A stretch of DNA of 64,000 nucleotides from Thermoplasmata archaeon (GTDB lineage Archaea > Thermoplasmatota > Thermoplasmata > Lutacidiplasmatales > UBA184). The notes beneath the pieces were generated by a model. That model made no database searches. It saw only the letters and a program-made list of their open reading frames with translations, and was not told the DNA's origin. Below are positions 9,288 through 59,400 of this stretch, piece after piece (the first letter of the stretch is position 1; each line of letters begins with the position of its first letter). A program made the position numbers and the translations under genes. The stretch covers positions 63,822 to 127,821 of the forward strand of contig DATGZO010000012.1 of the NCBI GenBank assembly GCA_035297105.1, in the 5' to 3' direction.

Positions 9288-11066
9288 GTGCAGATCCGCT
9301 ATCGGGTCGACACGGTCGCCCACGAGGGGCACCGGGGTCGATTCACGGTCGAACTGAACGGGGTGACCGATGCCTCGGTCGACCTGGTGGTCCCCTCCTG
9401 GGTCCCGGGCTCCTACCATCTCGTGAACTACGTCCGCGGGTTCCGGAACGTGACGGCTCGCGCCGGCCCCGACGGAGCCCTTCTCCCGACCGAGCGCGTG
9501 GAGTCCAGCCGGTGGAGGATCACGACCGGCGGCCACGCGGAGGTTCGGGTGGACTACACCGTCTACGGTCACGAACTGATCACGGAGGCGTTCGATCTTA
9601 CGCCGGAGCATCTATTCCTCAACGCGGCCCTGTCGCTGCCCTACGTCGAGGGCCACCTGGAGGATCCGGTCGAGGTCGAACTCCACCTCCCGCCAGACTG
9701 GCGGGTCGTCACCGAACTCGAGGAGGTCCGATCCCGACCGCCGACCTACCGGGCCCGGAACTACGACGAGCTCGTCGACAACCCGATCGACGCGGGGCAC
9801 CCGGTCGTGTTGACGATCCGCCCCCACGGGATCCCCCACCGGATCGCGATCTGCGGGGAGGGGGGCAACTACGAGGCGCACCGATTGGAAGAGGACTTGG
9901 GGAAGATCGTCGACGCCGCGATCCGGCTCATGGGCGATTCCCCTCTCACGGGGTACACCTTCTTCGTCCACCTGACCGACGTCCCGGACGGGGGCCTGGA
10001 GCATGGCGCCTCGAACTCGTCGGTGGTCCACCGAACGACCTTCGAGCCGCGAGAGCGGTACGAGCGGTTCCTCGGGCTCGAGAGCCACGAGTACTTTCAC
10101 CTGTACAACGTCAAGCGGATCCGGCCGAAGGTCCTGGGCCCGTTCGACTACACTCGAGAGAATTACACCCGCCTGCTCTGGTGGATGGAGGGAACGACCG
10201 ACTACTTCTCGGACCTCGTCCTCCGACGGGCGGACCTGTTGTCCCCCACCCGGTTCCTCGAGGAGTCCGCCAAGATCGCGAAGCTCCTCTTGGAATCTCC
10301 CGGTCGCCGGTTGCTCTCGCTGGAAGAGCTCTCGCAGATCACCTGGGTCGACTACTACAAACCGTACGAGGAATCCCCGAACCAATCGGTCTCGTACTAC
10401 ACCAAGGGCTACGTGGTCTCCCTCTGCCTCGACCTCGAGATCCGGCACCGGAGCGAGACGCGCGCCTCGATCGAGTCGGTCATGCGCCTCCTCTGGAAGG
10501 AGTACGGTCAGCCGGGGCGAGGGCTTGCGGAGGGCGAGCTCCAGCCGGTCGCCGAGCGGGCCACGGGTCTGGAGCTCGGCGAGTTCTTCGACCGGTACGT
10601 CCGGGGGACGGCCGAGCTCGACCTCGACCACTTCGCGGGGTACGCGGGCCTCACGTTCGGACCGAAACCGAAGCCCTCGGACGACCCGAGCCCCGAGGCG
10701 GGCTACCTGGGGATCCGCCACCGCGACGTGGGGGGTTTCGTGAAGGTCACGCACGTCCTCCTGGACACGCCCGCGCACCGGGCGGGGGTGAGCCCCGGCG
10801 ACGAGATCGTCGCCGTGAACGGCAACAAGGTCGCGGCCTCCTCCTTCGTGAAGGACCTCGAGGCGTACCCGCCCGGCACGCCCCTCGACCTCGCGGTCTT
10901 CCGACGGGGGTTCCTGCGCCACATTCCGCTGACCTCGGGGTCCCCTCCGCCCGAGAAGTACCGGTTCGCGTCGCTCGAAACGACCACCGACCTCGGAAAG
11001 AAGGTCTACCAGGCCTGGATCGGGGTCCCCTGGGAGCCCGCGAAGCCGGCCGCTACGAACCGGTAG
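9288..11066 (+). CDS. M61-family glycyl aminopeptidase with C-terminal PDZ domain
   Basis: Zinc motif 'HEYFHLYNV' (HExxH) plus downstream Glu. C-terminal 'GYLGI...VSPGDEIVAVNGNKV' PDZ-like. Confidence 0.7.
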   Translation: MQIRYRVDTVAHEGHRGRFTVELNGVTDASVDLVVPSWVPGSYHLVNYVRGFRNVTARAGPDGALLPTERVESSRWRITTGGHAEVRVDYTVYGHELITEAFDLTPEHLFLNAALSLPYVEGHLEDPVEVELHLPPDWRVVTELEEVRSRPPTYRARNYDELVDNPIDAGHPVVLTIRPHGIPHRIAICGEGGNYEAHRLEEDLGKIVDAAIRLMGDSPLTGYTFFVHLTDVPDGGLEHGASNSSVVHRTTFEPRERYERFLGLESHEYFHLYNVKRIRPKVLGPFDYTRENYTRLLWWMEGTTDYFSDLVLRRADLLSPTRFLEESAKIAKLLLESPGRRLLSLEELSQITWVDYYKPYEESPNQSVSYYTKGYVVSLCLDLEIRHRSETRASIESVMRLLWKEYGQPGRGLAEGELQPVAERATGLELGEFFDRYVRGTAELDLDHFAGYAGLTFGPKPKPSDDPSPEAGYLGIRHRDVGGFVKVTHVLLDTPAHRAGVSPGDEIVAVNGNKVAASSFVKDLEAYPPGTPLDLAVFRRGFLRHIPLTSGSPPPEKYRFASLETTTDLGKKVYQAWIGVPWEPAKPAATNR

Positions 11067-36026: not shown

Positions 36027-38495
36027 ATGGCGCGCCGTATTTTGGTTTTGGGCCTGGCCGTACTGCTGATCGTATCGACCCTGATGGTGCTCGGCACCGG
36101 AGGGAGCCGCGCCCAGGTCGCGCCGCTGGCTCCGCCTTCCGCGGCCCCGCATCCCGCGGCCCCGCATCCGTCGGTCAACTCCATCCAGGTCGAAACGTAC
36201 GAAGGGAACGACGTCTACTACAACGACACGTACTTCGCGAGCGGGGGATACAACTACCCCGGCGAGAACATCCTCTTCTTTTGGGTCTATGACCCCACGG
36301 CCGACTCGAGGCTGAACTTCACGCTCAGCGACCCGAACGCGTCCCGCGACGGCGTGGGCTCCCCCGCGTTCACCGTCAACGTCCCGCTGAACACCACCAC
36401 CCATGAGTACTTCTCCTACCTCGCCGGCGTTTCCTACACCTTCCCCTCGTCCCTCGCGATCGGCGGGACCTGGGTCGTGAACGCCTCCGCCCCGCTCGGC
36501 GGCTCGGCCCAGTACAACATCACCGTCGCGACGTTCGGTTCCGACATGAGCGGGAGCCCGCGACCGTACACCGGTGTTCTCCCGGGCGAGTCGATCACCG
36601 CGGCCTGGCAACTGTACAATCTCGTGAACGGAGCGTACGCCACTCACGTCACCAACCTCGCCCTGGACGGCTGGTATTACTCCAACGGGAGCTACCACAA
36701 CCTGTTCCCGGGCGGCATCGTCAACGTCTCCGTCTCGGCGGCCGGGGACTACACCTTCACGGTTCCGGCGAACGCCTCCGTCACCACCTACCTGTACTTC
36801 GACCTCTGGCCGACGATCATCTCCAACGGGAAGTTGGCCGAGAACGAGAGCGACGAGATCTGGTGGGGTGTGGGCTCCGTGGACCTCCAGGTCGAGCAGG
36901 AGACCGAATACAATGGGGTCTGCCCCACGGGGTACGACAGCAGCTACTACTCGGGCTCCCTGGTCCAGGTCTGCGCCACGGTGGGCGCGCTCTGGAACGA
37001 TGAGCTCTACGGGGTACCCAACCTGCCCGTCTCGATCCACTTCTGGAACGGCCTGAGCGTCGTCACGCCCGGCGGAAGCCCCCCGACGACGCTGATGAGC
37101 AACTCGACCGGCAAGGTCTCGTTCTCCTACCTCGCGACCAGCCCGCCGCTCACGAGCGAGTACGTGTACCCCTACGAGAACTACCTGAACCTCTCGGTCA
37201 CCGACCCGGTCGCGACCTCCCCTACCTCCGACTGGTCGAAGTGGTCCAACACGTCGCTCTACGTGGACGTGAATGGAGCGACCGGAGGGGTAGCAGTCCA
37301 GCTCAACCAACTCGAATACTATCCCGGCCAGACCGTGACGGCCACCTGGAGCCTAAGTTCCACCAACACCGCTCAGACCGGCACGCTCACCGCCGTGGGC
37401 TGGTATGCGTACAACGAGCAGACCGACGCCTTCCTCGCCCAGGGGATGATCTCTTCGACCGCGTCGACCGGAACCTTCAACGTCGCGCTCCCGACGGGCT
37501 TCGTCGGTCCCTTCGTCGTCGAAGTGTACGCGGTCAACGCCACCACATCGTTCTACGGGGAGGCGTACGGGTACTCGACCACCCCGCGCCTGTTCCTCAA
37601 CCCGAGCTCGACCACGTTCACGCCCGGCTCGACCGTGACCATCACGGCGGAAGCGTACGGGGACGCCGCACTCACCGGGGCGACCATCACGTACCAGGTG
37701 TGGGCCAGTTTCGACCTCGGCAGGAACTACGGGAACTATGGGATCGTCGAGACCGGGACCGTCGCGAACAACACCGCGTTCACGATCGCCGTTCCGTCGT
37801 CCGCGGCCCCCGGCTACTACGAGGTCTACGGCTACTTGGGCTCGACCGCCTCCGGAATCGTGGCCAGCGATGAGCTGGAGATCGACCAGGTGTGGGGGTA
37901 CTACGTCACCTTGGGAGTGAACACCGCCTCGAGCTACTCCGATGGAAGCTACCAGCCGGGGCAGACCCTGACGGTCGCCTTCCAGATCACCCCGTACGGG
38001 AACGCACCTCTGCCGGTGTTGTACACCTTCTATGTCGATCTCAACGGCGCACAGATCTACGACCAGCTGTCGTCCGCGAGCACCTCCGGAACCTTCCAGA
38101 TCACGATCCCCTCGGGGCAACCGAGCGGGATCGCCTTCCTGGAACTGGAGTTGGACGGAACGTACCTCTCCGGCAACTCGTGCGGCAGCGGCTACTGCTA
38201 CGGGGAGACGGCGATCACCATCAACGCGCACCCGTCCGTCCTGAGCATGGAGGTCGGAGGGAACAGCGGCATCACGGTCGGCTGGCTGATCCTCCTGATC
38301 GTGATCCTCGTGGTGGCGGTCGTGCTGGCGCTCCTGATCCGGCGGAAGAAGACGCCGCCCTCCTCCGGAGGGGCCTCGACCACGACCCCGATGTCGCCGC
38401 CCGCGCCCGCTCCTTCGGGAACGGGGGCCCAGGAGTGGAGTGAGCCGGCCCCGAACCAGCCACCCATGCCGACCCCTCCGCCGGGCAGCACCTAG
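36027..38495 (+). CDS. Large cell-surface glycoprotein (signal peptide, many N-glycosylation sequons, C-terminal TM anchor and Pro/Thr-rich tail)
   Basis: N-terminal 'MARRILVLGLAVLLIVSTLMVLG'. More than 25 NxS/T sequons. C-terminal 'ITVGWLILLIVILVVAVVLALLIRRKK' followed by a PT-rich tail. Confidence 0.7.
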   Translation: MARRILVLGLAVLLIVSTLMVLGTGGSRAQVAPLAPPSAAPHPAAPHPSVNSIQVETYEGNDVYYNDTYFASGGYNYPGENILFFWVYDPTADSRLNFTLSDPNASRDGVGSPAFTVNVPLNTTTHEYFSYLAGVSYTFPSSLAIGGTWVVNASAPLGGSAQYNITVATFGSDMSGSPRPYTGVLPGESITAAWQLYNLVNGAYATHVTNLALDGWYYSNGSYHNLFPGGIVNVSVSAAGDYTFTVPANASVTTYLYFDLWPTIISNGKLAENESDEIWWGVGSVDLQVEQETEYNGVCPTGYDSSYYSGSLVQVCATVGALWNDELYGVPNLPVSIHFWNGLSVVTPGGSPPTTLMSNSTGKVSFSYLATSPPLTSEYVYPYENYLNLSVTDPVATSPTSDWSKWSNTSLYVDVNGATGGVAVQLNQLEYYPGQTVTATWSLSSTNTAQTGTLTAVGWYAYNEQTDAFLAQGMISSTASTGTFNVALPTGFVGPFVVEVYAVNATTSFYGEAYGYSTTPRLFLNPSSTTFTPGSTVTITAEAYGDAALTGATITYQVWASFDLGRNYGNYGIVETGTVANNTAFTIAVPSSAAPGYYEVYGYLGSTASGIVASDELEIDQVWGYYVTLGVNTASSYSDGSYQPGQTLTVAFQITPYGNAPLPVLYTFYVDLNGAQIYDQLSSASTSGTFQITIPSGQPSGIAFLELELDGTYLSGNSCGSGYCYGETAITINAHPSVLSMEVGGNSGITVGWLILLIVILVVAVVLALLIRRKKTPPSSGGASTTTPMSPPAPAPSGTGAQEWSEPAPNQPPMPTPPPGST

Positions 38496-38560
38496 ACCGA
38501 GGTCCCGCTCTCGAGTCGAACCCTTTCCTCCCTCTTTCTTTTCCGTTGCACAGGTAGCCC
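38496..38560 (+). terminator. Pyrimidine/T-rich tract downstream of the surface-protein gene (archaeal oligo-T terminator candidate)
   Basis: 'CCTTTCCTCCCTCTTTCTTTTCCGTTGC' directly after the stop codon. Confidence 0.4.
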
Positions 38561-38594
38561 CGGCAAGGCCCGTGCCAGGGTTCTCCAATGCGTC

Positions 38595-39569
38595 TCAGGG
38601 AACAAAGTCTCGTCCCAGTGCTCGAACCGAGCCGACCGCGTCGTCGATCGGGAGTCCCCCGAAATCGAAGATCCCCAGGACCTCGTCAACGCCCGCCGCC
38701 CGGTACGCGTCCAATCGGTGGGCGACCTCCGAAGGGGTGCCCAGGAGCGCGAGGTTGGCCGCCTCGAGGCCCGCCCGGCTGGCCTCGTGCGGATGGTGGG
38801 CGGCCTTCGCCTGGTAGAAGGTGCTCTGCGTGCGCAGGCGGCTGGAAAGGAACCGGTCGAGCGCCTCGCGGGCCCGTTCGGGGTGATCGCCGGCATACAG
38901 ATGGACCGCGACGGCGACCTCGGCCCGACTTCCGTTCGGTAGGGCGGCCCGGAACTCCCGGATCTCTTCCGCCAGTTCCTCCACCCCCGAGACGGTCGCG
39001 TACGGGATGAGGGCGAGCGAGACGCCCCTCTGGGCGACGAACGGGATCGCTTCGCGGCGCTGCACCGCGATCCACAGCGGGGGGTGGGGAGTTTGGACCG
39101 GCAGGACGTTCAGGCGCACCGGAGGGGCGCCGGGCCCGCCGATGCGGACCTCTCGACCGGCCATCAATTCCAGGATCGTGGTGTACGCGGCGTCGAACCG
39201 TTCGTGCCGCGACGCCGGATCAATCCCGAATCCCTCGAACTCGGTCGGGATGTAGCCGCTGCCCAGGCCCAAGTTGACCCGCCCACCCATCATCCGGTCC
39301 AGGAGGGAGTACTCCTCCGCCACGTCCACCGGTCGGTGGAACGGGAGGACGCTCACGAGCGCACCCAGGCGCAGTCGTCGGGTCCGCGCCCCGCATGCGG
39401 CGAGAAGTACCGGCGGAGATGGGCAGACCCCGGCGGGGTTGAAATGGTGCTCGGCGACCCAGAGTCCGGACAGTCCGGCTTCCTCGGCGGCTCCGGCCAG
39501 TTCGAGGATGTCCCGGTACCGATCCCGTCCGGGGACCTCGTCGACGATCGAGAAGACCGAGAGTTTCAC
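38595..39569 (-). CDS. LLM-class flavin/F420-dependent oxidoreductase (luciferase-like monooxygenase family)
   Basis: 'LSGLWVAEHHF' and 'LGLGSGY' motifs typical of the LLM TIM-barrel; 324 aa. Confidence 0.7.
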   Translation of the reverse strand: MKLSVFSIVDEVPGRDRYRDILELAGAAEEAGLSGLWVAEHHFNPAGVCPSPPVLLAACGARTRRLRLGALVSVLPFHRPVDVAEEYSLLDRMMGGRVNLGLGSGYIPTEFEGFGIDPASRHERFDAAYTTILELMAGREVRIGGPGAPPVRLNVLPVQTPHPPLWIAVQRREAIPFVAQRGVSLALIPYATVSGVEELAEEIREFRAALPNGSRAEVAVAVHLYAGDHPERAREALDRFLSSRLRTQSTFYQAKAAHHPHEASRAGLEAANLALLGTPSEVAHRLDAYRAAGVDEVLGIFDFGGLPIDDAVGSVRALGRDFVP

Positions 39570-39703
39570 GTCCCCGGCGACCGGAATCGCCTACATGGCC
39601 TTTGGCAGGACGGAACGACCCGTTTCCGCCCCATCCTCCCCGAGGCCGCGGTGACCGACCGAGCAAAACCCTAAGACCCACGGGCCGCCCTCGGGACCTC
39701 GGT

Positions 39704-39777
39704 GGGCTGGTAGATCAGTTCGGAAGATCGCCGGTTTTGCAAACCGGAGGTCTCGGGTTCAAATCCCGACCAGTCCA
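39704..39777 (+). tRNA. tRNA-Ala (anticodon UGC)
   Basis: Acceptor GGGCTGG/CCAGTCC with G3:U70 (the Ala identity pair). D-stem GATC/GATC. Anticodon stem CCGGT/ACCGG with loop TTTGCAA. T-arm TCGGG-TTCAAAT-CCCGA. Confidence 0.85.
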
Positions 39778-39833
39778 TTGAGCCAACGGCGTGCGGCAGC
39801 GTCGGCATCGATCCGGAACGCGTAAGTGCCGGA

Positions 39834-40169
39834 ATGACCATTCCCCGCCTCGGAGGCACCATGCCACTGCTGCGCGAGGCGCGGTCCAGACTTCTGAGCC
39901 GCGTGTTCTGGTCCATTCTTGCGGTCGGTGTGGTGTTGATTCTGGTGGCGGCCGTACTGTACATTCACCCTGTCTGCACGGGCCCCTACCCTTGCCCCCC
40001 GGCCCAACCGTGCTCCACGCCCCCCGTCGGGTGCACGATCGATCCCGCCGCGGCTGTTGTTGCATTCGCCGGACTGCTTCTGATCGTGATGGGAGTTGGC
40101 GGATCGCTCGCCGTCCGTCGTCCCCGGGCTCCGCTCAGGGAACCGAATCCCCCGTCGACAATCGACTAG
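39834..40169 (+). CDS. Small Cys/Pro-rich membrane protein
   Basis: 'VFWSILAVGVVLILVAAVLYI' and 'AAAVVAFAGLLLIVMGVGGSLAV' TM segments flank 'CTGPYPCPPAQPCSTPPVGC'. Lies between tRNA-Ala and its partial 3' duplicate. Confidence 0.35.
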   Translation: MTIPRLGGTMPLLREARSRLLSRVFWSILAVGVVLILVAAVLYIHPVCTGPYPCPPAQPCSTPPVGCTIDPAAAVVAFAGLLLIVMGVGGSLAVRRPRAPLREPNPPSTID

Positions 40170-40217
40170 ATTCATTGAGGTTCGAATCCGGCGGATTCGA
40201 GTGACGGGGTCTGCTCC

Positions 40218-40235
40218 GGAGGAGCAAATCCCGAC
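40218..40235 (+). repeat. 18-nt direct repeat identical to the tRNA-Ala 3' end (CAAATCCCGACCAGTCCA); att-like integration scar
   Basis: Read directly: 39760-39777 (T-loop through discriminator of tRNA-Ala) is repeated at 40218-40235 in the same orientation. The short flank 'CATTGAG' is also shared. Confidence 0.6.
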
Positions 40236-40467
40236 CAGTCCATCCACCACTCCTCGAGGACGGATCCGCGGATCCGGATGTCGATCGTCGGCCCCCGACA
40301 CACGAGGTCAGGATCGGTCAGCGTAAGAACCCGACTCGGGTCGACATGACTCCGACGTCAGGTCCCGTGCCCGAACCTGGGCCACCGGCACGCGCTCCGC
40401 GATCGCTCCGTCTCCCCGGGCAGGATCACCGCGACCAGGAGTCCGTACCGCTCGCGTCGGCGCAAGG

Positions 40468-41181
40468 CTAGACGAACACGAGTTCGAAGGCTTCCTGACC
40501 GTTCGGATACTCCTTGGTTCGGACTACTTTCCGGTCGAGCCGGATCCCCGCCGCCTCGAGCGCCGCGGTATCCCGTTCGAGAGCGCTGCCCAGGTAGACG
40601 TTGAGGATTGTCTGGTGGGCTAACGCGCCCTCGACCATCCGGGTCGCCCCCACGATCGGGCTTCCGACGATCGTCAGGAGCTCCCCTACCCGCACGAGCT
40701 CGCATGGGCCGGCGTCGATCCCTATCGACAACCCCGTTCCGGCGGGGAAGTTTCGGGAGTTCCGGCGTAAGTTGGCCAGAAGGGAGTCGGCCGCCGAGAG
40801 CGCGGTGCGGCAGAAGTCCGGGATCGTTCCGATGTCGGCCGGACGCTCTCGTGGGGGGATCCAAAAGGCGACGAATCCGTCCCCGGTGAACTTGTCGAAC
40901 CAGCCCCCAGAGGAGTTCGCCAGCGCTCGGACCGCCTCGGTGAACCCCACGATGAATCGAGCGAAAACGGACGGTTGCACCGCTTCCTTCAGGACGAGAG
41001 TGGACATCCGAAGGTCGCCGACGACCACGATCGCTTCCACGGCGGTGGATCCCATGGAGACGAGCTCCTGGATCGCCTCGGCGGAGAGCTGTTCGCGGGC
41101 ACTCTCCGGTCCCTGGCGAAGAAGGAGCGCGTCGAACTCGGTGGTCCCGCCTTCATCGGCGCTAGAAGGGAGTTCGAACAT
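40468..41181 (-). CDS. Class-III nucleotidyl (adenylyl/guanylyl) cyclase-homology-domain protein, standalone
   Basis: 'VVVGDLRMSTL' (metal Asp, F-x-D-I-x-G-F-T-like). 'DKFTGDGFVAFW' matches K-T-I-G-D-A-Y-M-A-V-F, including the base-specifying Lys. 'IGIDAGPCELVRVG...IVGATRM' matches the GxHxGPVVAG...TASRME region. A Thg1-like alternative was considered and is less favoured. Confidence 0.55.
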   Translation of the reverse strand: MFELPSSADEGGTTEFDALLLRQGPESAREQLSAEAIQELVSMGSTAVEAIVVVGDLRMSTLVLKEAVQPSVFARFIVGFTEAVRALANSSGGWFDKFTGDGFVAFWIPPRERPADIGTIPDFCRTALSAADSLLANLRRNSRNFPAGTGLSIGIDAGPCELVRVGELLTIVGSPIVGATRMVEGALAHQTILNVYLGSALERDTAALEAAGIRLDRKVVRTKEYPNGQEAFELVFV

Positions 41182-41440
41182 GAGGCGTTCCCCAGGGCTG
41201 GACCCGTGGCCGTGAACGTGGTCCGGGACTTCAGCTTGAGCCCCGTCTCGGTAGATTCGTGGCCCTCGTTGGCCCGACCACCGGTTGGGCCCCTTCGCGG
41301 ATGTGCCTGCGGAATCTTCAGGGAGACATTCGCCGTCCAGCGGACGACGGATTCGGGGAGGGCGGCGCTATCGAACCCATCTCGTCACGAGAGCGCTGAT
41401 CTGCCCGAGCCTGCGGATCCGGTTCTGCAGGGGGCGGAAC

Positions 41441-41710
41441 TCAGCCTCCGCTACCGCCGGTGTGCACGGCGCCGGACCCACCCGTATGCTCCTCACCCGA
41501 ATCGGTCACCGCGCCGCAGGCGGGGCAGATCGTGGCATTCGTCGGCAGGGGTCTATGACAGTTCGAACACAACACCGGACTCGTCACGCCTTCGGGGAAC
41601 CCGAGGGCTCTCATGAACGTGGCGGGGGTCGATTCGAACCGGGGGCGACGAACTCGGCCCCGGGCAACTCCGGGGGCGGCAGGGGCCGGAGGGATTTCGA
41701 CCCGTTTCAT
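41441..41710 (-). CDS. Small zinc-ribbon protein
   Basis: 'CSNCHRPLPTNATICPACG' CxxC...CxxC, Gly-rich tail. Divergent from nre. True start may be the internal Met. Confidence 0.35.
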   Translation of the reverse strand: MKRVEIPPAPAAPGVARGRVRRPRFESTPATFMRALGFPEGVTSPVLCSNCHRPLPTNATICPACGAVTDSGEEHTGGSGAVHTGGSGG

Positions 41711-41721
41711 GCCCCCTCGCC

Positions 41722-43074
41722 GTGAGCTATAGCCAGTCGCCCCCTTTCCCGTTGGCCGTGATGACGTCCCCCCACGCTCCTCCCCTGCTCGGGGTGGAGC
41801 CCACCGCCGGGCTCTCGTGGAGCATTCCGGGCTTGCGCGAGGACCCCAGCATGTGTTTGCGGTGTCGCTCGGCCCAACTCTTGTGCGGTAAGCCGGTGTG
41901 TCCGCTTCTGATCCGGTACCACGCCTTCGAACGGACGTTGCCGATGGTCCAGGGAACGGAACTCTCGGGCTCCTCCCCGCCCGGATTGTTCGTCGGTCGG
42001 TTCGGGTATCCGCGGGTCTCCTTCGGCCCCCTCCTCAGCCCGGAGCACGGGTCGACCGAGATGCTGGACACCCCCGAGCAATGGGTGGGCCGCTCGGTGG
42101 CCGAGGTCGTCGGGTTTCGGACCGGCCTGGTGCGAGGAACGAGTCCCATCCGGGTCACGGATGCCGAGAAGCCGATCCCCCTTCTCGAGGACCTTCAGCT
42201 GCTCGGACTTTCCTCGGAATCGGTGGAGAGCGAGACCCGGTTCCGCCGCCCCCCCCGGGGCCACATCACGCTCTCCGATTCCGCCCCTCCTTTCGGCCCT
42301 TCGGCCCCGATTGAGCACCTACGGTTGGACGTCCGAAGGGTCGATCCTCACCTCGATCGCCTCTCTTCCGACACCGCCGCGAACGCACGGACCGCGGTGA
42401 CCGAGCTCTATGCGAGGGGGGTTCGGGTCAGCCGTATCCAGCGCGCGTTCAGCGTCGGGACGCTCGGACGGCGGGGGCGGCGCAAGCTGGTCCCGACGCG
42501 ATGGAGCATCACCGCCGTCGACGATGTACTTTCCAAGCAGAATCTCCTCCGGGTCCGCGAGTTGCCGGAGCTGGGAGAGATCCGCGTGCACCGTCTGACG
42601 GCCCTCGAGAACCGTTGGGTGATCGTCCTCTTACCCGGAGTGTGGCGGTACGAGTCGATCGAGGCCTGGTATCCCGAGACGCTTTGGAACCCGAGCCCGA
42701 CCCAGGTCATCCTGATGGGCGACCACGAAGGGCACGACGGCCGGACGACGTACGCCTCCATCGGAGGCTGCTACTACGCGGCGCGGCTTGCGGTCTCGGA
42801 GGCGCTCCTTCGGTTCGGACGTCAGGCCGGGGCCATCGTGTTCCGGGAGGTCCACCCCGGAGAGATCCTCCCGTTGGGGGTCTGGAACGTGCGGGAGCAC
42901 GTCCGGGCGGCGCTCCAGGAACCGGCCCTTCGCTTGAGTTCCTTGCCCGAGCTGAACCAGGTGTTGCAGACGACGTTCTCCATCCCGCTCGACCGATGGC
43001 TCGCTCAGAGCGCGGTCCTCCACGAGACCCGCACCCAGCGGCGGCTGGACGACTGGCTCGGGACGGCGAACTAA
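41722..43074 (+). CDS. nreA: Archaeal Nre-family DNA-repair protein (DUF650/DUF651, COG1602)
   Basis: N-terminal 'CLRCRSAQLLCGKPVCPLL' zinc finger characteristic of Nre; 450 aa. Confidence 0.6.
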   Translation: MSYSQSPPFPLAVMTSPHAPPLLGVEPTAGLSWSIPGLREDPSMCLRCRSAQLLCGKPVCPLLIRYHAFERTLPMVQGTELSGSSPPGLFVGRFGYPRVSFGPLLSPEHGSTEMLDTPEQWVGRSVAEVVGFRTGLVRGTSPIRVTDAEKPIPLLEDLQLLGLSSESVESETRFRRPPRGHITLSDSAPPFGPSAPIEHLRLDVRRVDPHLDRLSSDTAANARTAVTELYARGVRVSRIQRAFSVGTLGRRGRRKLVPTRWSITAVDDVLSKQNLLRVRELPELGEIRVHRLTALENRWVIVLLPGVWRYESIEAWYPETLWNPSPTQVILMGDHEGHDGRTTYASIGGCYYAARLAVSEALLRFGRQAGAIVFREVHPGEILPLGVWNVREHVRAALQEPALRLSSLPELNQVLQTTFSIPLDRWLAQSAVLHETRTQRRLDDWLGTAN

Positions 43075-52717: not shown

Positions 52718-52878
52718 ATGGGAGCAGGGGGATTTGAACCCCCATATGCGGGTCTCTCCGCGCGCTCCAGTCAATCGTCATGGGGGCGGGAACCGCCCCT
52801 CCGCAGACCCATATCACAGGGGGCTCGAAAGCCACCCTGACTGGAGCCCGCTGGTCTACCAAGTTAGCCTATGCTCCC
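52718..52878 (-). tRNA. Intron-containing tRNA gene (about 161 nt between acceptor ends; anticodon not confidently resolved, GCG/Arg under one model)
   Basis: Minus strand: 5' GGGAGCA pairs with 3' TGCTCCC + A. Canonical T-arm GGGGG-TTCAAAT-CCCCC. About 87 nt more than a mature tRNA lie between the D-region and the T-arm, including the 7-bp hairpin GGGGCGG-TTC-CCGCCCC. Candidate stem TGGGT/ACCCG with loop CTGCGG|A. TATA-like AAGGATATCT about 27 bp upstream. Confidence 0.6.
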
Positions 52879-57357: not shown

Positions 57358-59400
57358 TTACGCCTTGGCCGCCGCGGCGGGCCGGCGGTCGGGCGAGGCC
57401 GCCGAGTCCCGCTTGATCTCGCGGATGCGGTCGCGGATCCGGGCCGCCTCCTCGAAGTCGAGCCGCTCGGCGGAGAGGTGCATCTCCTCCTCGAGGTTCG
57501 CGAGAAGCAGCGGGAGCTTCTCCTTCCACTTCTTGCCGAGTCCCGAGGTCGAGAGCTCGGTGGACCCTTCGGGCGTGCCGAGCAGCGCCCGCACCTCCTT
57601 CTGGACCGATTCGGGGACGATGCCGTGGACCCGATTGTAGTCGACCTGGGCGGTGCGCCGTCGCGTCATCTCGTCGATCGCGCGCCGCATCGAGCCCGTG
57701 GTCCGGTCCGCGTAGAGGACGACCTTGCCGCGTTCGTTCCGGCTCGCCCGTCCCGCGGTCTGGACGATCGAGGTCTCGCTGCGCAGGTAGCCCTCCTTGT
57801 CGGCGTCCAAGATCGCCACGAAGCTGACCTCGGGCAGGTCCAACCCCTCCCGGAGGAGGTTGATCCCGACCAGTACATCGAACTGGCCGAGCCGAAGGTC
57901 GCGCAGCACTTCGACTCGCTTCAGAGTCTCGACGTCCGAGTGCAGGTAGCGGACCTTGAGACCGAGCTTCGTCAGGTAGTTCGCGAGCTCCTCGCTCGTC
58001 CGCTTCGTGAGCGTCGTGACGAGGGCGCGGTCGCCCTCGGCGATGCACCGACGAAGCTCGCCGACCAGGTCCTCGATATGCCCTGCGAGCGGGCGTACCT
58101 CGATCGGAGGGTCGACCAGGCCGGTGGGCCGGATGATCTGCTCGACGACCCCCTTCGACACCTTGTGCTCGAACGGGCCGGGTGTCGCCGAGACGAAGAC
58201 CGCCTGCGGGACGCGAGTGAGGAACTCCGGGAACGTCAGGGGCCGGTTGTCCCGGCAGGAGGGAAGGCGCCAGCCGAACTCGACGAGATTGTCCTTGCGG
58301 CTCCGGTCGCCCTTGTACATCCCCTGGAGCTGCGGGATCGTGGCGTGGGACTCGTCGAGGAAGACGAGCAGGTCCTTCGGGAAGAAGTCGAGGAGGGTGT
58401 AGGGGGGCTCTCCCGGCTTTCGTCCGGCGAAGTAGCGCGAGTAGTTCTCCACGCCCGAGCAGTAGCCGGTCTCCCGAAGCATCTCGAGGTCGTAGTTGAC
58501 CCGCCCCTTGAGCCGCTGCGCCTCGACGATCTTCTCCGCGTCCGCGAGCTCCTTGACACGGACGTCCCGTTCCTTCTCGATCTCGTGGAGGATGCCGCCC
58601 ATCCGCTCGTCCACCGTAAGAAAATGGGTCGCAGGGAACACCGAGAGCTGATCCAGGTCCCGCCGTTCCTCCCGCGTGATCGGATCCAGCTCGGCGATCG
58701 CGGAGACGACCCGGCCATCGAGGACGATCCGGTGTACCGTCTCGCCCGCGCCCATCACATCCAGCGTGCCCCCGCGAACACGGAACCGGCCCCGCTTGAG
58801 CTCCATGTCGTTGCGCTGGTACTTCATCCGGATGAGCTGGTCGATCAGCTCCTGACGACCGATGTCCTGCCCCACGCGCAGACCGACCACGTTGGCGCGG
58901 TAGTCCTCGGGAGAACCCAAGCCGTAGATGCAACTCACGGAGGCGACGACCAGGACGTCCCGCCGGGTGAGCAACGCCTGAGTCGCGCGGTGCCGAAGGC
59001 GGTCGATCTCCTCGTTGATCGACATGTCCTTCTCGATGTAGAGATCGATCTGGGGGACGTACGCCTCGGGCTGGTAGTAGTCGTAGTAGCTGACGAAGTA
59101 CTCGACCGCGTTCCGGGGGAAGAGCGCCCGGAACTCGCTGACGAGTTGCGCGGCGAGCGTCTTGTTGGGGCTCACGACCAGGGTCGGGCGCTGCAGCCGC
59201 TGGACGGTGTGCGCCATCGTGAACGTCTTGCCGCTACCGGTGACGCCCAAGAGGGTGACGTACTTCTCGCGCCGTTTGAGCCGGGCGACGACCTCGTCGA
59301 TCGCCCTCGGCTGGTCCCCCTGGGGCACCATGTCGGTCTCGAGCTCGAAGTGCCCGGGCAGCTCCGGTTCAGCCTTCGCCGTCGTCGCTTTCGGGCTCAC
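57358..59400 (-). CDS. uvrB: Excinuclease ABC subunit B
   Basis: 'LLGVTGSGKTFTMA' Walker A, beta-hairpin region, helicase motifs, C-terminal 'LEEEMHLSAERLDFEEAARIRDRIREI' UvrC-interaction (UVR) domain. Confidence 0.9.
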   Translation of the reverse strand: MSPKATTAKAEPELPGHFELETDMVPQGDQPRAIDEVVARLKRREKYVTLLGVTGSGKTFTMAHTVQRLQRPTLVVSPNKTLAAQLVSEFRALFPRNAVEYFVSYYDYYQPEAYVPQIDLYIEKDMSINEEIDRLRHRATQALLTRRDVLVVASVSCIYGLGSPEDYRANVVGLRVGQDIGRQELIDQLIRMKYQRNDMELKRGRFRVRGGTLDVMGAGETVHRIVLDGRVVSAIAELDPITREERRDLDQLSVFPATHFLTVDERMGGILHEIEKERDVRVKELADAEKIVEAQRLKGRVNYDLEMLRETGYCSGVENYSRYFAGRKPGEPPYTLLDFFPKDLLVFLDESHATIPQLQGMYKGDRSRKDNLVEFGWRLPSCRDNRPLTFPEFLTRVPQAVFVSATPGPFEHKVSKGVVEQIIRPTGLVDPPIEVRPLAGHIEDLVGELRRCIAEGDRALVTTLTKRTSEELANYLTKLGLKVRYLHSDVETLKRVEVLRDLRLGQFDVLVGINLLREGLDLPEVSFVAILDADKEGYLRSETSIVQTAGRASRNERGKVVLYADRTTGSMRRAIDEMTRRRTAQVDYNRVHGIVPESVQKEVRALLGTPEGSTELSTSGLGKKWKEKLPLLLANLEEEMHLSAERLDFEEAARIRDRIREIKRDSAASPDRRPAAAAKA

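What the first reader, a model, noticed from the sequence alone, without database searches (positions are those of the whole stretch)
39704..40235. 18-nt duplication of the tRNA-Ala 3' end about 440 bp downstream of the intact gene: att-like integration scar
tRNA-Ala(UGC) occupies 39704-39777. Its last 18 nt (CAAATCCCGACCAGTCCA) recur identically and in the same orientation at 40218-40235, and the short flank CATTGAG is also repeated. Archaeal integrative elements (SSV/pNOB8-type and other tyrosine-integrase elements) recombine within tRNA 3' ends and leave exactly this signature: an intact tRNA at one junction and a displaced 3' partial copy at the other. The bracketed segment is only ~440 bp and carries a single Cys/Pro-rich membrane ORF. 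It therefore looks like a decayed or largely deleted element, or a residual junction from repeated integration and excision. No integrase is visible in the window.
Basis: seen in the sequence. Interest (0 to 1): 0.6.

Follow-up and report, generated by a model that had tools for sequence, protein, structure and literature searches.

The report
Old integration scar beside tRNA-Ala gene
The last 19 bases of a tRNA-Ala gene are repeated 447 bp downstream around one small membrane-protein gene; this is most likely the old, immobile footprint of DNA that once inserted into the tRNA gene, a common kind of scar at a site used repeatedly in related peat and soil archaea.

Summary
The repeat is real and is not chance. 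CAAATCCCGACCAGTCCA(T) lies at 39760-39778, the 3' end of tRNA-Ala(UGC), and again at 40225-40243. The 447 bp between the copies hold one 102-aa two-helix membrane ORF and no recombinase.

Comparison with other genomes supports an att-type junction.
- Among 108 archaeal loci with this tRNA-Ala (mostly Thermoplasmata), 15 carry partial 3'-end copies. Copies lie downstream in the same orientation 26 times, against 2-6 in each control class.
- Sister species have different cargo at this spot: two unrelated ParE toxin-antitoxin pairs, or almost nothing.
- Homology between species breaks exactly at the tRNA end and about 20 nt past the distal copy.
- A second species has the same ORF and an orthologous fragment decayed to 15/18. 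So the insertion is old, vertically inherited and drifting neutrally.

No integrase was found in the window, in the bracket, or in any Thermoplasmata array. No free element with this att site was found either. The recombination mechanism is therefore inferred, not shown. The 'CATTGAG flank repeat' is a chance 7-mer.

Verdict: an ordinary tRNA-gene integration footprint, a new member of a known kind. The mildly interesting part is the lineage-wide hotspot of integrase-less single-gene inserts.

The parts
38595..39569 (-). Luciferase-like monooxygenase gene (LLM). This is the conserved left-hand neighbour of tRNA-Ala.
   Evidence: PF00296 on JGI/Logan contigs. The LLM-tRNA-Ala pairing is conserved in about 65 of the fetched Thermoplasmata loci.
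39704..39777 (+). Intact tRNA-Ala(UGC) gene with G3:U70. CCA is not encoded.
   Evidence: ARAGORN; Rfam RF00005, 67.4 bits; sequence read.
39760..39778 (+). Proximal copy of the 19-nt direct repeat, running from the T-loop to the discriminator plus one base. This is the attL-type core.
39779..39860 (+). Left arm of the inserted segment. It is unrelated to the sequence that follows tRNA-Ala in L092, L082 and L035, but 86% identical to L188.
   Evidence: Homology to L092/L082/L035 stops at 39778-39779. Identity to L188 is 71/83.
39861..40169 (+). Cargo gene: a 102-aa protein with two predicted transmembrane helices and a Cys/Pro-rich loop (alternative start 39834). It matches no family above threshold, and only two homologue clusters exist in 5.8 billion proteins.
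   Evidence: ORF list; called as a gene; Pfam has only sub-threshold hits; homologues P0001 and P0002 only; dN/dS 0.52, no indels and 4 conserved Cys against L188.
40182..40200 (.). Perfect 9+9 palindrome TCGAATCCG-G-CGGATTCGA in the right arm. It is not conserved as a hairpin in L188.
   Evidence: I6; L188 sequence; the region does not fold unusually well, z = -0.74.
40225..40243 (+). Distal copy of the 19-nt direct repeat. This is the displaced tRNA 3' end (attR-type core), lying in a 3'-3' intergenic region.
   Evidence: The orthologous copy in L188 is 15/18 identical to the tRNA.
40244..40263 (+). Short tail after the core (CCACCACTCCTCGAGG...). It is weakly similar to the tails in L188, L035 and L092. 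Homology with L188 ends here.
   Evidence: Alignments. The blastn alignment ends at 40242.
40468..41181 (-). Class III nucleotidyl-cyclase-like gene (p237), outside the bracket. It is a single gene that sits in other genomic contexts in related species.
   Evidence: PADLOC PycC, E = 4.8e-6. Sources name homologues 'class 3 adenylate cyclase'. Contexts differ in L227-L232 and homology is limited to the gene. It is absent from this locus in L092 and L188.
41441..41710 (-). Zn-ribbon protein gene. Homology with L092 resumes here.
   Evidence: PF13240; blastn.
41722..43074 (+). Nre (archaeal Nre_N/Nre_C) gene. This is the right-hand conserved anchor in the window's clade.
   Evidence: Pfam annotation on contigs. 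Identity is 93% to L092, 90% to L188 and 86% to L082.

Best explanation
The distal 19-mer is the right-hand (attR-type) junction of a small DNA segment that entered the chromosome by site-specific recombination within the last ~19 nt of tRNA-Ala(UGC), from the T-loop to the discriminator.

Proposed mechanism. The incoming DNA carried its own copy of this tRNA 3' end. Recombination rebuilt an intact tRNA at the left junction (39760-39778) and pushed the original 3' end to the right junction (40225-40243). The segment now holds only a 102-aa membrane-protein gene and no recombinase. It is fixed and vertically inherited in at least two species, and the distal copy is drifting neutrally. It is therefore an immobilised relic (a 'captured gene'), not an active element. 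The same tRNA 3' end is a recurrent insertion hotspot across soil and peat Thermoplasmata and some DPANN-type archaea.

Shown: the repeat, its orientation, homology boundaries that coincide with the junctions, alternative cargo in sister species, and the lineage-wide enrichment.

Inferred: that a tyrosine-type integrase, acting in trans or since lost, did the recombination.
For: (1) The 19-nt direct repeat is exact and non-random.
(2) In 108 loci with this tRNA-Ala, copies of CCGACCAGTCCA (up to 1 mismatch) occur 26 times downstream in the same orientation. The control classes give 6 (downstream, opposite), 2 (upstream, same) and 3 (upstream, opposite) over similar lengths. Fifteen loci have at least one fragment. 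Identity to the tRNA runs 12-19 nt back from the 3' end, so the window's 18-19 nt is the upper mode.
(3) Arrays of up to five fragments separate single genes in L116, L083, L128 and L041.
(4) Fragments from different genomes share non-tRNA arms next to the core. Type 1 is a ~65-nt element. Type 2 is GGATTYGAACCCC..GTGGACG plus the core. The downstream arms TTTCGAC and YTATCCCC also recur. This is what element-borne attP arms would leave.
(5) In the window's own genus, the space between tRNA-Ala and the fragment holds a ParE toxin-antitoxin pair in L092, a different ParE/DUF7557 pair in L035/L172, only 54 nt in L082, and the small ORF in the window and L188.
(6) Homology of the window to L092/L082/L035 stops at the tRNA end (39778). 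Homology to L188 (86%) runs from the tRNA to 40242 (about +20 nt) and then stops.
(7) The bracket is found in only two species among about 110 Thermoplasmata genomes sampled, and the ORF has only two homologue clusters in 5.8 billion proteins.
(8) A 19-nt att core is within the range reported for archaeal integrated elements: median 17 bp in Thaumarchaeota and 29-69 bp in Crenarchaeota (PMC6563490). tRNA-gene fragments from such integrations are described as pervasive (PMC9897764).
Against: No integrase was found. The bracket has none. There is none within about 10 kb on annotated contigs of the same strain. A phmmer search seeded with E. coli XerD (sequence recalled from memory) over all stop-free ORFs of at least 100 aa in the window and 119 loci hit only L056, a low-GC archaeon whose hit Pfam confirmed as PF00589. 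That search would miss very divergent SSV-type integrases.

No free virus or plasmid with this att site was found in IMG/VR, PLSDB or the phage collection. No truly empty site or excision product was seen for the window's own species; all 11 contigs that span the fragment carry it (L004-L011, L013; L190; L012 ends 3' of it). The bracket shows no compositional deviation (GC 0.64-0.66 against 0.62-0.69 in the flanks). The window's arms are not demonstrably homologous to the type-2 arms of its sister species (E = 0.53 when the profile excludes the window and L188). For this particular copy the inference therefore rests on position and boundaries, not on a shared element.
Confidence: 0.65

Rival explanations
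1. This is a gene-cassette platform anchored on tRNA-Ala. Small integrase-less units of one or two genes, each ending in a short tRNA-3'-end-like site, are inserted, stacked and exchanged by a recombinase encoded elsewhere in the genome. That would be functionally integron-like or IMEX-like. The window's ORF plus 19-mer would be one such cassette.
For: Arrays of two to five fragments separate single genes or toxin-antitoxin pairs in L116, L083, L128, L041 and L149. No integrase lies inside any Thermoplasmata array. The cargo is typical of cassette arrays: ParE toxin-antitoxin pairs, a methyltransferase, a HAD hydrolase, cyclases and a DpnI-like protein. L082 has an 'empty' unit of about 66 nt made only of arm sequences. 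L149 has an arm-core-arm arrangement.
Against: No candidate recombinase was identified. There is no attC-like structure: sequence upstream of fragments folds no better than controls (mean z = -0.2 over 53 sites), and the window's site has z = -0.74. Gene orientation within the arrays is mixed. Only 8-kb pieces of each genome could be read, so an integrase a little further away is not excluded. Ordinary tandem integration followed by decay explains the same pattern.
Confidence: 0.12
2. The distal copy is the last remnant of a second, tandem tRNA-Ala gene (a pseudogene), or of a local duplication made by replication or repair error. No mobile element was involved.
For: Upstream of the fragment there are weak colinear similarities to the tRNA. 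CCGGAGG lies 2 nt before the 18-mer. GGTTCGAATCCGGCGGATTCGAGT resembles the stretch from the anticodon arm to the T-stem. In L188 this similarity reaches p = 0.04.
Against: In the window the upstream similarity is not significant (p = 0.42). No fragment in 15 genomes keeps any 5' tRNA part, and all start in the T-loop or T-stem. Up to five copies occur with genes between them. Non-tRNA arms are shared between genomes. Different cargo occupies the same bracket in sister species.
Confidence: 0.12
3. The distal copy is a conserved, non-mobile functional element, for example a structured RNA, a processing or termination signal, or a protein-binding site that happens to resemble the tRNA end.
For: A fragment sits at the corresponding place in four or five related species, and the 12-nt CCGACC(A/G)GTCCA is the best-conserved block of the type-2 motif.
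Against: There is no Rfam match even at E = 10. Folding is no better than shuffles (z = -0.74). No terminator-like site is present. The fragment lies between two convergent genes. The ortholog in L188 has drifted at 3 of 18 positions (83% identity), the same rate as the surrounding non-coding DNA (85-86%). The palindrome next to it is not maintained in L188.
Confidence: 0.05
4. The repeat is a target-site duplication made by a transposon or casposon, or is simply a chance repeat.
For: Casposons are known to insert at tRNA 3' ends and in tandem (PMC6563490 and my own knowledge).
Against: There are no terminal inverted repeats at the ends of the bracket. The 447 bp contain no Cas1 or transposase. 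Chance is excluded.
Confidence: 0.02

Closest known systems
attL/attR junctions of genomic islands and proviruses integrated in archaeal tRNA genes, for example PYG1 in Pyrococcus yayanosii tRNA-Gln with 44-bp direct repeats (described in PMC9897764)
   Same: There is an intact tRNA at one end and a partial 3' copy in the same orientation at the other end. The repeat ends at or just beyond the tRNA 3' end. Related genomes differ in what lies between the copies.
   Different: The insert here is 447 bp with one small gene and no integrase, against 9-23 kb with an integrase. The repeat is 19 nt rather than about 44. The junction is old and shared by two species.
Cryptic integrated elements and tandem arrays in Thaumarchaeota (PMC6563490)
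   Same: The att sites are short (median 17 bp, down to 8 bp), tRNA genes are preferred targets, elements occur in tandem at one site, and comparison with relatives is needed to define the sites.
   Different: Those elements are multigene and identified through their integrases. The Thermoplasmata inserts seen here are one or two genes and lack a detectable integrase.
SSV-type ('suicidal') integrase elements and gene capture (PMC7253208, PMC8371274)
   Same: That model predicts elements trapped in the chromosome next to a tRNA after the integrase is lost. This matches an immobilised, integrase-less insert bounded by a tRNA repeat.
   Different: The defining feature is an integrase gene split into two halves flanking the insert. 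No such halves were found, and no integrase-like ORF abuts either junction.
Integron gene cassettes
   Same: The units are small, of one gene or one toxin-antitoxin pair, and are stacked in direct orientation beside a fixed anchor. Each ends in a short conserved site.
   Different: There is no IntI, no attI, no attC hairpin structure and no uniform gene orientation. The conserved site is a tRNA 3' end.
Casposon insertions at tRNA 3' ends
   Same: The tRNA 3' end is duplicated, and tandem insertions are known.
   Different: There are no terminal inverted repeats and no Cas1. The insert is far too small.

Membership tests
tRNA-targeting integrative element junction (tyrosine-recombinase type) | A direct repeat identical to the 3' part of a tRNA gene, in the same orientation, with the intact tRNA at one end | tested here: met
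   The 19-nt exact repeat lies at 39760-39778 and 40225-40243.
tRNA-targeting integrative element junction (tyrosine-recombinase type) | An integrase gene inside or beside the bracketed DNA | tested here: not met
   The bracket holds only the 102-aa ORF, which has no integrase domain. There is no integrase within about 10 kb on annotated contigs. The XerD-seeded phmmer search found nothing in the 64-kb window. The seed was recalled from memory, and divergent SSV-type enzymes could be missed.
tRNA-targeting integrative element junction (tyrosine-recombinase type) | Content differs between related genomes, with breakpoints at the repeats | tested here: met
   L082 has about 54 nt, L092 and L035 have ParE toxin-antitoxin pairs, and the window and L188 have the small ORF. 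Homology breaks at 39778 and at about 40242-40263. A strictly empty site (the tRNA followed directly by the right flank) was not found.
tRNA-targeting integrative element junction (tyrosine-recombinase type) | A free or excised form carrying attP, or demonstrated integration or excision | tested here: not met
   No matching attP was found in IMG/VR, and the plasmid and phage collections gave no match. Recombination activity itself cannot be tested with these tools.
SSV-type integrase element | Integrase ORF partitioned into N- and C-terminal parts abutting the two junctions | tested here: not met
   The ORFs next to the junctions are the small membrane ORF and non-coding spacers. No SSV-specific profile was run beyond Pfam on that ORF.
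Integron | IntI integrase plus attI, and attC sites with conserved hairpin architecture | tested here: not met
   No Xer/IntI-like protein was found. There is no structural signal at the window's site or upstream of the 53 fragments.
Casposon or transposon | Terminal inverted repeats and a casposase or transposase, with a target-site duplication | tested here: not met
   There are no inverted repeats at the ends of the bracket and no such gene.
tRNA pseudogene (decayed tandem copy) | Residual similarity to tRNA regions 5' of the repeat, colinear with the gene | tested here: inconclusive
   p = 0.42 in the window and p = 0.04 in L188. Only the 19-mer is significant in the local alignment.
Known structured RNA (Rfam) | A covariance-model match | tested here: not met
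   No match was found in 39780-40480 at E up to 10.

The most novel reading that the evidence does not exclude
In soil and peat Thermoplasmata, the 3' end of tRNA-Ala(UGC) serves as the anchor of a gene-capture array. Integrase-less units of one or two genes (toxin-antitoxin pairs, cyclases, small membrane proteins), each ending in a tRNA-3'-end-like core with family-specific arms, are inserted and stacked by a recombinase encoded elsewhere. This would be an archaeal, tRNA-anchored functional analogue of integron or IMEX systems. The window's ORF plus 19-mer would be one fixed cassette.
Probability: 0.12. Interest if true: 0.65.

Novelty: new member of a known kind. Interest (0 to 1): 0.3.

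Why it matters
Taken alone, this is a routine footprint. It marks the 102-aa membrane ORF as horizontally acquired accessory DNA, and it warns annotators that the second 19-mer is not a gene.

The wider pattern is of more interest. One tRNA 3' end is used again and again in uncultured Thermoplasmata (and some DPANN-type archaea), with conserved arm sequences, tiny cargo and no visible integrase. That gives a concrete handle (the core plus the type-1 and type-2 arms) for finding the still-unknown mobile elements and recombinases of this poorly studied group. It also helps in mapping flexible genomic islands in their MAGs.

Tried and rejected
1. CATTGAG as a second repeated flank. It is a 7-mer that is not in register with the second copy, is not significant, and is not conserved in L188.
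2. A longer, gapped copy of the tRNA (anticodon arm to 3' end) upstream of the fragment. This was not significant in the window (p = 0.42).
3. Homology of the window's right arm to the type-2 motif of sister species. It was suggested by MAFFT but was not supported when the profile excluded the window and L188 (E = 0.53).
4. A third, distant copy at 57864-57877 (13/14), which would have bracketed an 18-kb island. It lies inside a UvrB-like coding sequence and is a chance match.
5. A hairpin preceding every fragment, as in attC sites. It is not general (mean z = -0.2 over 53 sites).
6. A structured RNA or terminator at the fragment. There was no Rfam hit, z was -0.74, and no terminator-like site was found.
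7. Terminal inverted repeats. None were found.
8. Compositional anomaly of the bracket. None was found.
9. Fragments of the other three tRNAs in the window. None were found.
10. Free elements carrying the site. Three IMG/VR scans and searches of the plasmid and phage collections gave only chance or coding hits.
11. The metagenome scan for the type-2 core mostly returned bacterial MscS-like coding sequence. Only L149, L172 and L187 were relevant.
12. The Pfam screen of 148 downstream ORF representatives shows only the top 25 families, so it cannot exclude a singleton integrase. It was replaced by the XerD-seeded phmmer search.
13. Contig breaks inside tRNA-Ala as evidence of strain variation. 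These are more simply explained by co-occurring species that share an identical tRNA.
14. p237 as a second att-bounded cassette. No fragment lies at its far end or at its homologues' loci.
Full report

The window carries an intact tRNA-Ala(UGC) at 39704-39777 on the + strand (ARAGORN; Rfam 67.4 bits). Its last 18 nt, CAAATCCCGACCAGTCCA, occur exactly twice in the 64 kb, both on the + strand, at 39760-39777 and 40225-40242. None of 100 dinucleotide-preserving shuffles gave two or more matches, even with three mismatches allowed.

The identity extends one base further, making a 19-nt repeat at 39760-39778 and 40225-40243. A local alignment of the tRNA plus flank against the next 1.9 kb scores 38 for this match. 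The maximum over 200 shuffles was 26, and nothing else in the region is significant.

The 'repeated flank' CATTGAG does recur, at 39776-39782 and 40173-40179. Its second copy is 46 nt upstream of the second 18-mer rather than beside it. It is not kept as a repeat in the sister species, and I treat it as chance.

The bracketed DNA (39779-40224, about 447 bp) has no terminal inverted repeats. Its GC content (0.64-0.66) is like that of its flanks.

**2. What lies in and around the bracket**

The bracket contains one gene, 39861-40169 (+). It encodes 102 aa behind a GGAGG and was called as a gene on JGI contigs. The protein has two hydrophobic helices and a Cys/Pro-rich loop. It reaches no Pfam, NCBIfam or PADLOC threshold. 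It has only two homologue clusters among 5.8 billion proteins.

The distal 19-mer lies in a 298-nt gap between two convergent genes. These are the small ORF and, on the minus strand, a 237-aa class III cyclase-like gene at 40468-41181. That gene hits PADLOC PycC at E = 4.8e-6, and sources name its homologues 'class 3 adenylate cyclase'.

The fragment region has no Rfam match at E up to 10. It folds no better than shuffles (z = -0.74) and has no terminator-like site.

Annotated contigs of the same strain show only housekeeping genes within about 10 kb: the luciferase-like monooxygenase (LLM), an 822-aa surface protein, Nre, AdoMet synthase and others.

**3. Where the window comes from**

The same sequence, at 100% identity, is on several JGI, Logan and NCBI metagenome contigs. 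The 18-mer scan of one genome per species returned 119 loci. Nearly all are MAGs labelled Thermoplasmata from soils and peat, with some DPANN-type archaea. The LLM gene next to tRNA-Ala is conserved in about 65 of them, so these loci are comparable.

**4. The lineage-wide pattern**

In the 108 loci with an intact tRNA-Ala, I counted copies of the last 12 nt (CCGACCAGTCCA, up to 1 mismatch).

| Position relative to the tRNA | Orientation | Count |
|---|---|---|
| Downstream | Same | 26 |
| Downstream | Opposite | 6 |
| Upstream | Same | 2 |
| Upstream | Opposite | 3 |

The lengths searched were similar, 411 kb downstream and 345 kb upstream. Three of the 26 are full second tRNA genes. The rest are fragments, spread over 15 loci.

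Identity to the tRNA always runs back from the 3' end for 12-19 nt, that is, into the T-stem or T-loop. No fragment keeps any 5' part of the tRNA. The window's 18-19 nt is at the upper mode.

Several genomes have arrays. L116 has four fragments separating two cyclase-TPR genes and a HAD hydrolase. L083, L128, L041 and L149 have two to five.

Fragments from different genomes share non-tRNA sequence next to the core.
- Type 1 is a ~65-nt element (...CTCCC..CCACAAG..GGARTCCCGACCAGTCCA-TTTCGAC).
- Type 2 is GGATTYGAACCCC(N)GGGGGG.GTGGACG-CCGACCRGTCCA.
- The downstream arms TTTCGAC and YTATCCCC recur both after the tRNA itself and after fragments.

This is what repeated integration of related elements carrying arm-core-arm (attP-like) sites would leave.

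**5. The window's own genus**

Four related species can be compared with the window. Their Nre proteins are 93%, 90% and 86% identical to the window's for L092, L188 and L082; L035 has no Nre in the 8 kb held.

| Locus | What lies between tRNA-Ala and the fragment |
|---|---|
| L082 | A conserved 24-nt stretch, then directly the type-2 motif; the fragment starts 54 nt after the tRNA |
| L092 | The same 24 nt, a truncated left copy of the motif, about 830 bp with a ParE toxin and an antitoxin, then a full right copy |
| L035/L172 | The same layout as L092, with a different ParE/DUF7557 pair |
| Window and L188/L189 | A different left arm, the small ORF, then the fragment |

Homology of the window to L092, L082 and L035 is 100% through the tRNA and stops at 39778-39779. 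With L092 it resumes only at 41441, at the Zn-ribbon gene. Homology to L188 is 86% from the tRNA to 40242, with weak similarity for about 20 nt more. It then stops: L188 continues with AhpC and DsbA genes, while the window continues with the cyclase-like gene.

The bracket sequence is found in no other sampled genome, nor in the plasmid or phage collections.

**6. Age and selection**

In L188 the orthologous fragment reads CGAATCCCGAGCCGTCCA, which is 15/18 identical to the tRNA. That 83% identity matches the 85-86% seen in the surrounding non-coding DNA.

The palindrome TCGAATCCG-G-CGGATTCGA next to the fragment is not maintained in L188. The small ORF shows dN/dS = 0.52, no indels over 102 codons, and four conserved cysteines. 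It is therefore probably a real, weakly constrained gene.

The duplication thus predates the split of these two species. It is inherited vertically, and the distal copy behaves as a neutral relic. The perfect 19/19 match in the window is compatible with chance survival at this level of divergence.

**7. The missing recombinase**

I searched all stop-free ORFs of at least 100 aa in the window and in all loci with phmmer. The seed was the E. coli XerD sequence, recalled from memory. The only hit was in L056, a low-GC archaeon, 2.7 kb downstream of a tRNA-Ala with the same 18-mer. Pfam confirmed it as PF00589. No distal fragment lies in the 8 kb held for L056.

No Thermoplasmata array, and nothing in the 64-kb window, gave a hit. 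ORFs inside the brackets that I scanned individually are toxin-antitoxin genes, a methyltransferase, a HAD hydrolase, cyclases, DUF6058 or unknowns. A DpnI-family hit in the batch screen probably belongs to the L043 bracket. Three IMG/VR scans for the core variants returned only chance or coding matches, none resembling the arm profiles.

The integrase step is therefore inferred from the anatomy. Three possibilities remain open:
- a divergent SSV-type enzyme that my search missed;
- an integrase just outside the 8-kb pieces;
- a recombinase acting in trans.

**8. Interpretation**

The anatomy matches the classical product of integration into a tRNA 3' end. The supporting features are:
- an intact tRNA and a displaced 3' end in direct orientation;
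- breakpoints of interspecies homology at both junctions;
- alternative cargo at the same place in sister species;
- strong lineage-wide directional enrichment;
- shared arms between genomes.

The literature describes tRNA-gene fragments made this way as pervasive in archaea (PMC9897764). It reports att cores as short as 8-25 bp and tandem arrays (PMC6563490). It also describes SSV-type integrases whose genes are split, and so inactivated, on integration (PMC7253208, PMC8371274).

I put 0.65 on this reading for the window's copy. A closely related variant, a tRNA-anchored cassette array serviced in trans, gets 0.12. A decayed tandem tRNA copy or local duplication also gets 0.12, because weak colinear similarity upstream of the fragment exists (p = 0.04 in L188, 0.42 in the window). 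A conserved functional element gets 0.05. Transposon target duplication or chance gets 0.02.

**9. Novelty and verdict**

This is a new member of a known kind: an old, immobilised att-type scar that brackets a captured ORFan membrane-protein gene. It was imprecise on coordinates. The flank motif is not meaningful. The assignment to a named integrase family has no support yet.

The mildly interesting point lies beyond the window. tRNA-Ala(UGC) is a recurrent hotspot in uncultured Thermoplasmata, filled with very small integrase-less inserts that carry recognisable arm sequences. Those arms could be used to hunt for the unknown mobile elements of this group.

Noticed in passing
window 52719-52878 (-): A tRNA found by Rfam (44.5 bits) but missed by ARAGORN. 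It carries an insertion of about 87 nt in the anticodon-loop region. From my reading of the sequence, the anticodon context CUCCAGU suggests tRNA-Trp(CCA). Archaeal tRNA-Trp introns classically encode a box C/D guide RNA (my own knowledge); this was not checked here.
   Followed up: partly
window 40468-41181 (-): A 237-aa class III nucleotidyl-cyclase-like protein (PADLOC PycC, E = 4.8e-6; no Pfam hit). More than 300 homologues exist in Thermoplasmata, but the gene sits in quite different neighbourhoods in related species. Homology is limited to the gene itself, so it behaves as a single relocating gene. Larger cyclase-TPR genes also sit directly next to tRNA-Ala in L116, L083, L093 and L042.
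   Followed up: partly
window 36027-43074, compared with L014, L022, L049, L050, L058, L070, L080, L103, L114, L123: A synteny break lies just 3' of tRNA-Ala. In ten more distant Thermoplasmata the order is Nre, surface protein, LLM, tRNA-Ala. In the window, L092, L188 and L082, Nre lies downstream of the tRNA. Its orientation there is what an inversion of the surface-protein-LLM-tRNA block would produce, with one breakpoint at the tRNA 3' flank.
   Followed up: no
L189 469-1595: In a sister population, an IS630-family (DDE_3) transposase is inserted exactly at the CTAG that forms the stop codon of the small ORF. It replaces the fragment-bearing sequence seen in L188.
   Followed up: partly
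L116 4256-4320, 6655-6720, 7776-7833; L083 3163-3225, 4215-4279; L128 6026-6086, 7366-7428; L126 889-953: A conserved ~65-nt 'type-1' element (CCTGTTTTCAC..CTCCC..CCACAAG..GGARTCCCGACCAGTCCATTTCGAC) recurs in direct orientation between single genes downstream of tRNA-Ala in several species. No integrase is in view. It may be the arm-core-arm site of an unknown element family.
   Followed up: partly
L082 863-928; L092 and L035 downstream of tRNA-Ala; L149 (two copies about 580 nt apart): A 'type-2' motif TGGATTYGAACCCC(N)GGGGGG.GTGGACGCCGACCRGTCCAC. Its first 12-14 nt are the reverse complement of a generic T-arm and its last 12 nt are the tRNA-Ala 3' end. In L092 and L035 a truncated left copy and a full right copy flank ParE toxin-antitoxin modules.
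   Followed up: partly
L001-L003, L005-L011 (contig ends at window 39708-39733): Many independent metagenome assemblies of this organism break inside the tRNA-Ala gene. The likely cause is that co-occurring related species share an identical tRNA with different flanks. This is a practical cause of MAG fragmentation at this hotspot.
   Followed up: partly
L136 about 10105-10132 (IMG/VR contig, GC 38%): A viral contig carries CTCGGGTGCAAATCCCGACCAGTCCA, a T-arm plus acceptor end one mismatch from this tRNA-Ala. No full tRNA and no integrase were seen nearby. It could be an attP of a virus of a low-GC archaeon.
   Followed up: no
L112 133, 3809, 5742; L015, L048, L051: In low-GC archaeal loci a third arm type (GTATTCGCTTAAAAC.TTAATCAAATCCCGACCAGTCCA) precedes the same core, with three copies in L112. 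The same tRNA-Ala end therefore seems to be reused as an attachment site well outside Thermoplasmata.
   Followed up: no
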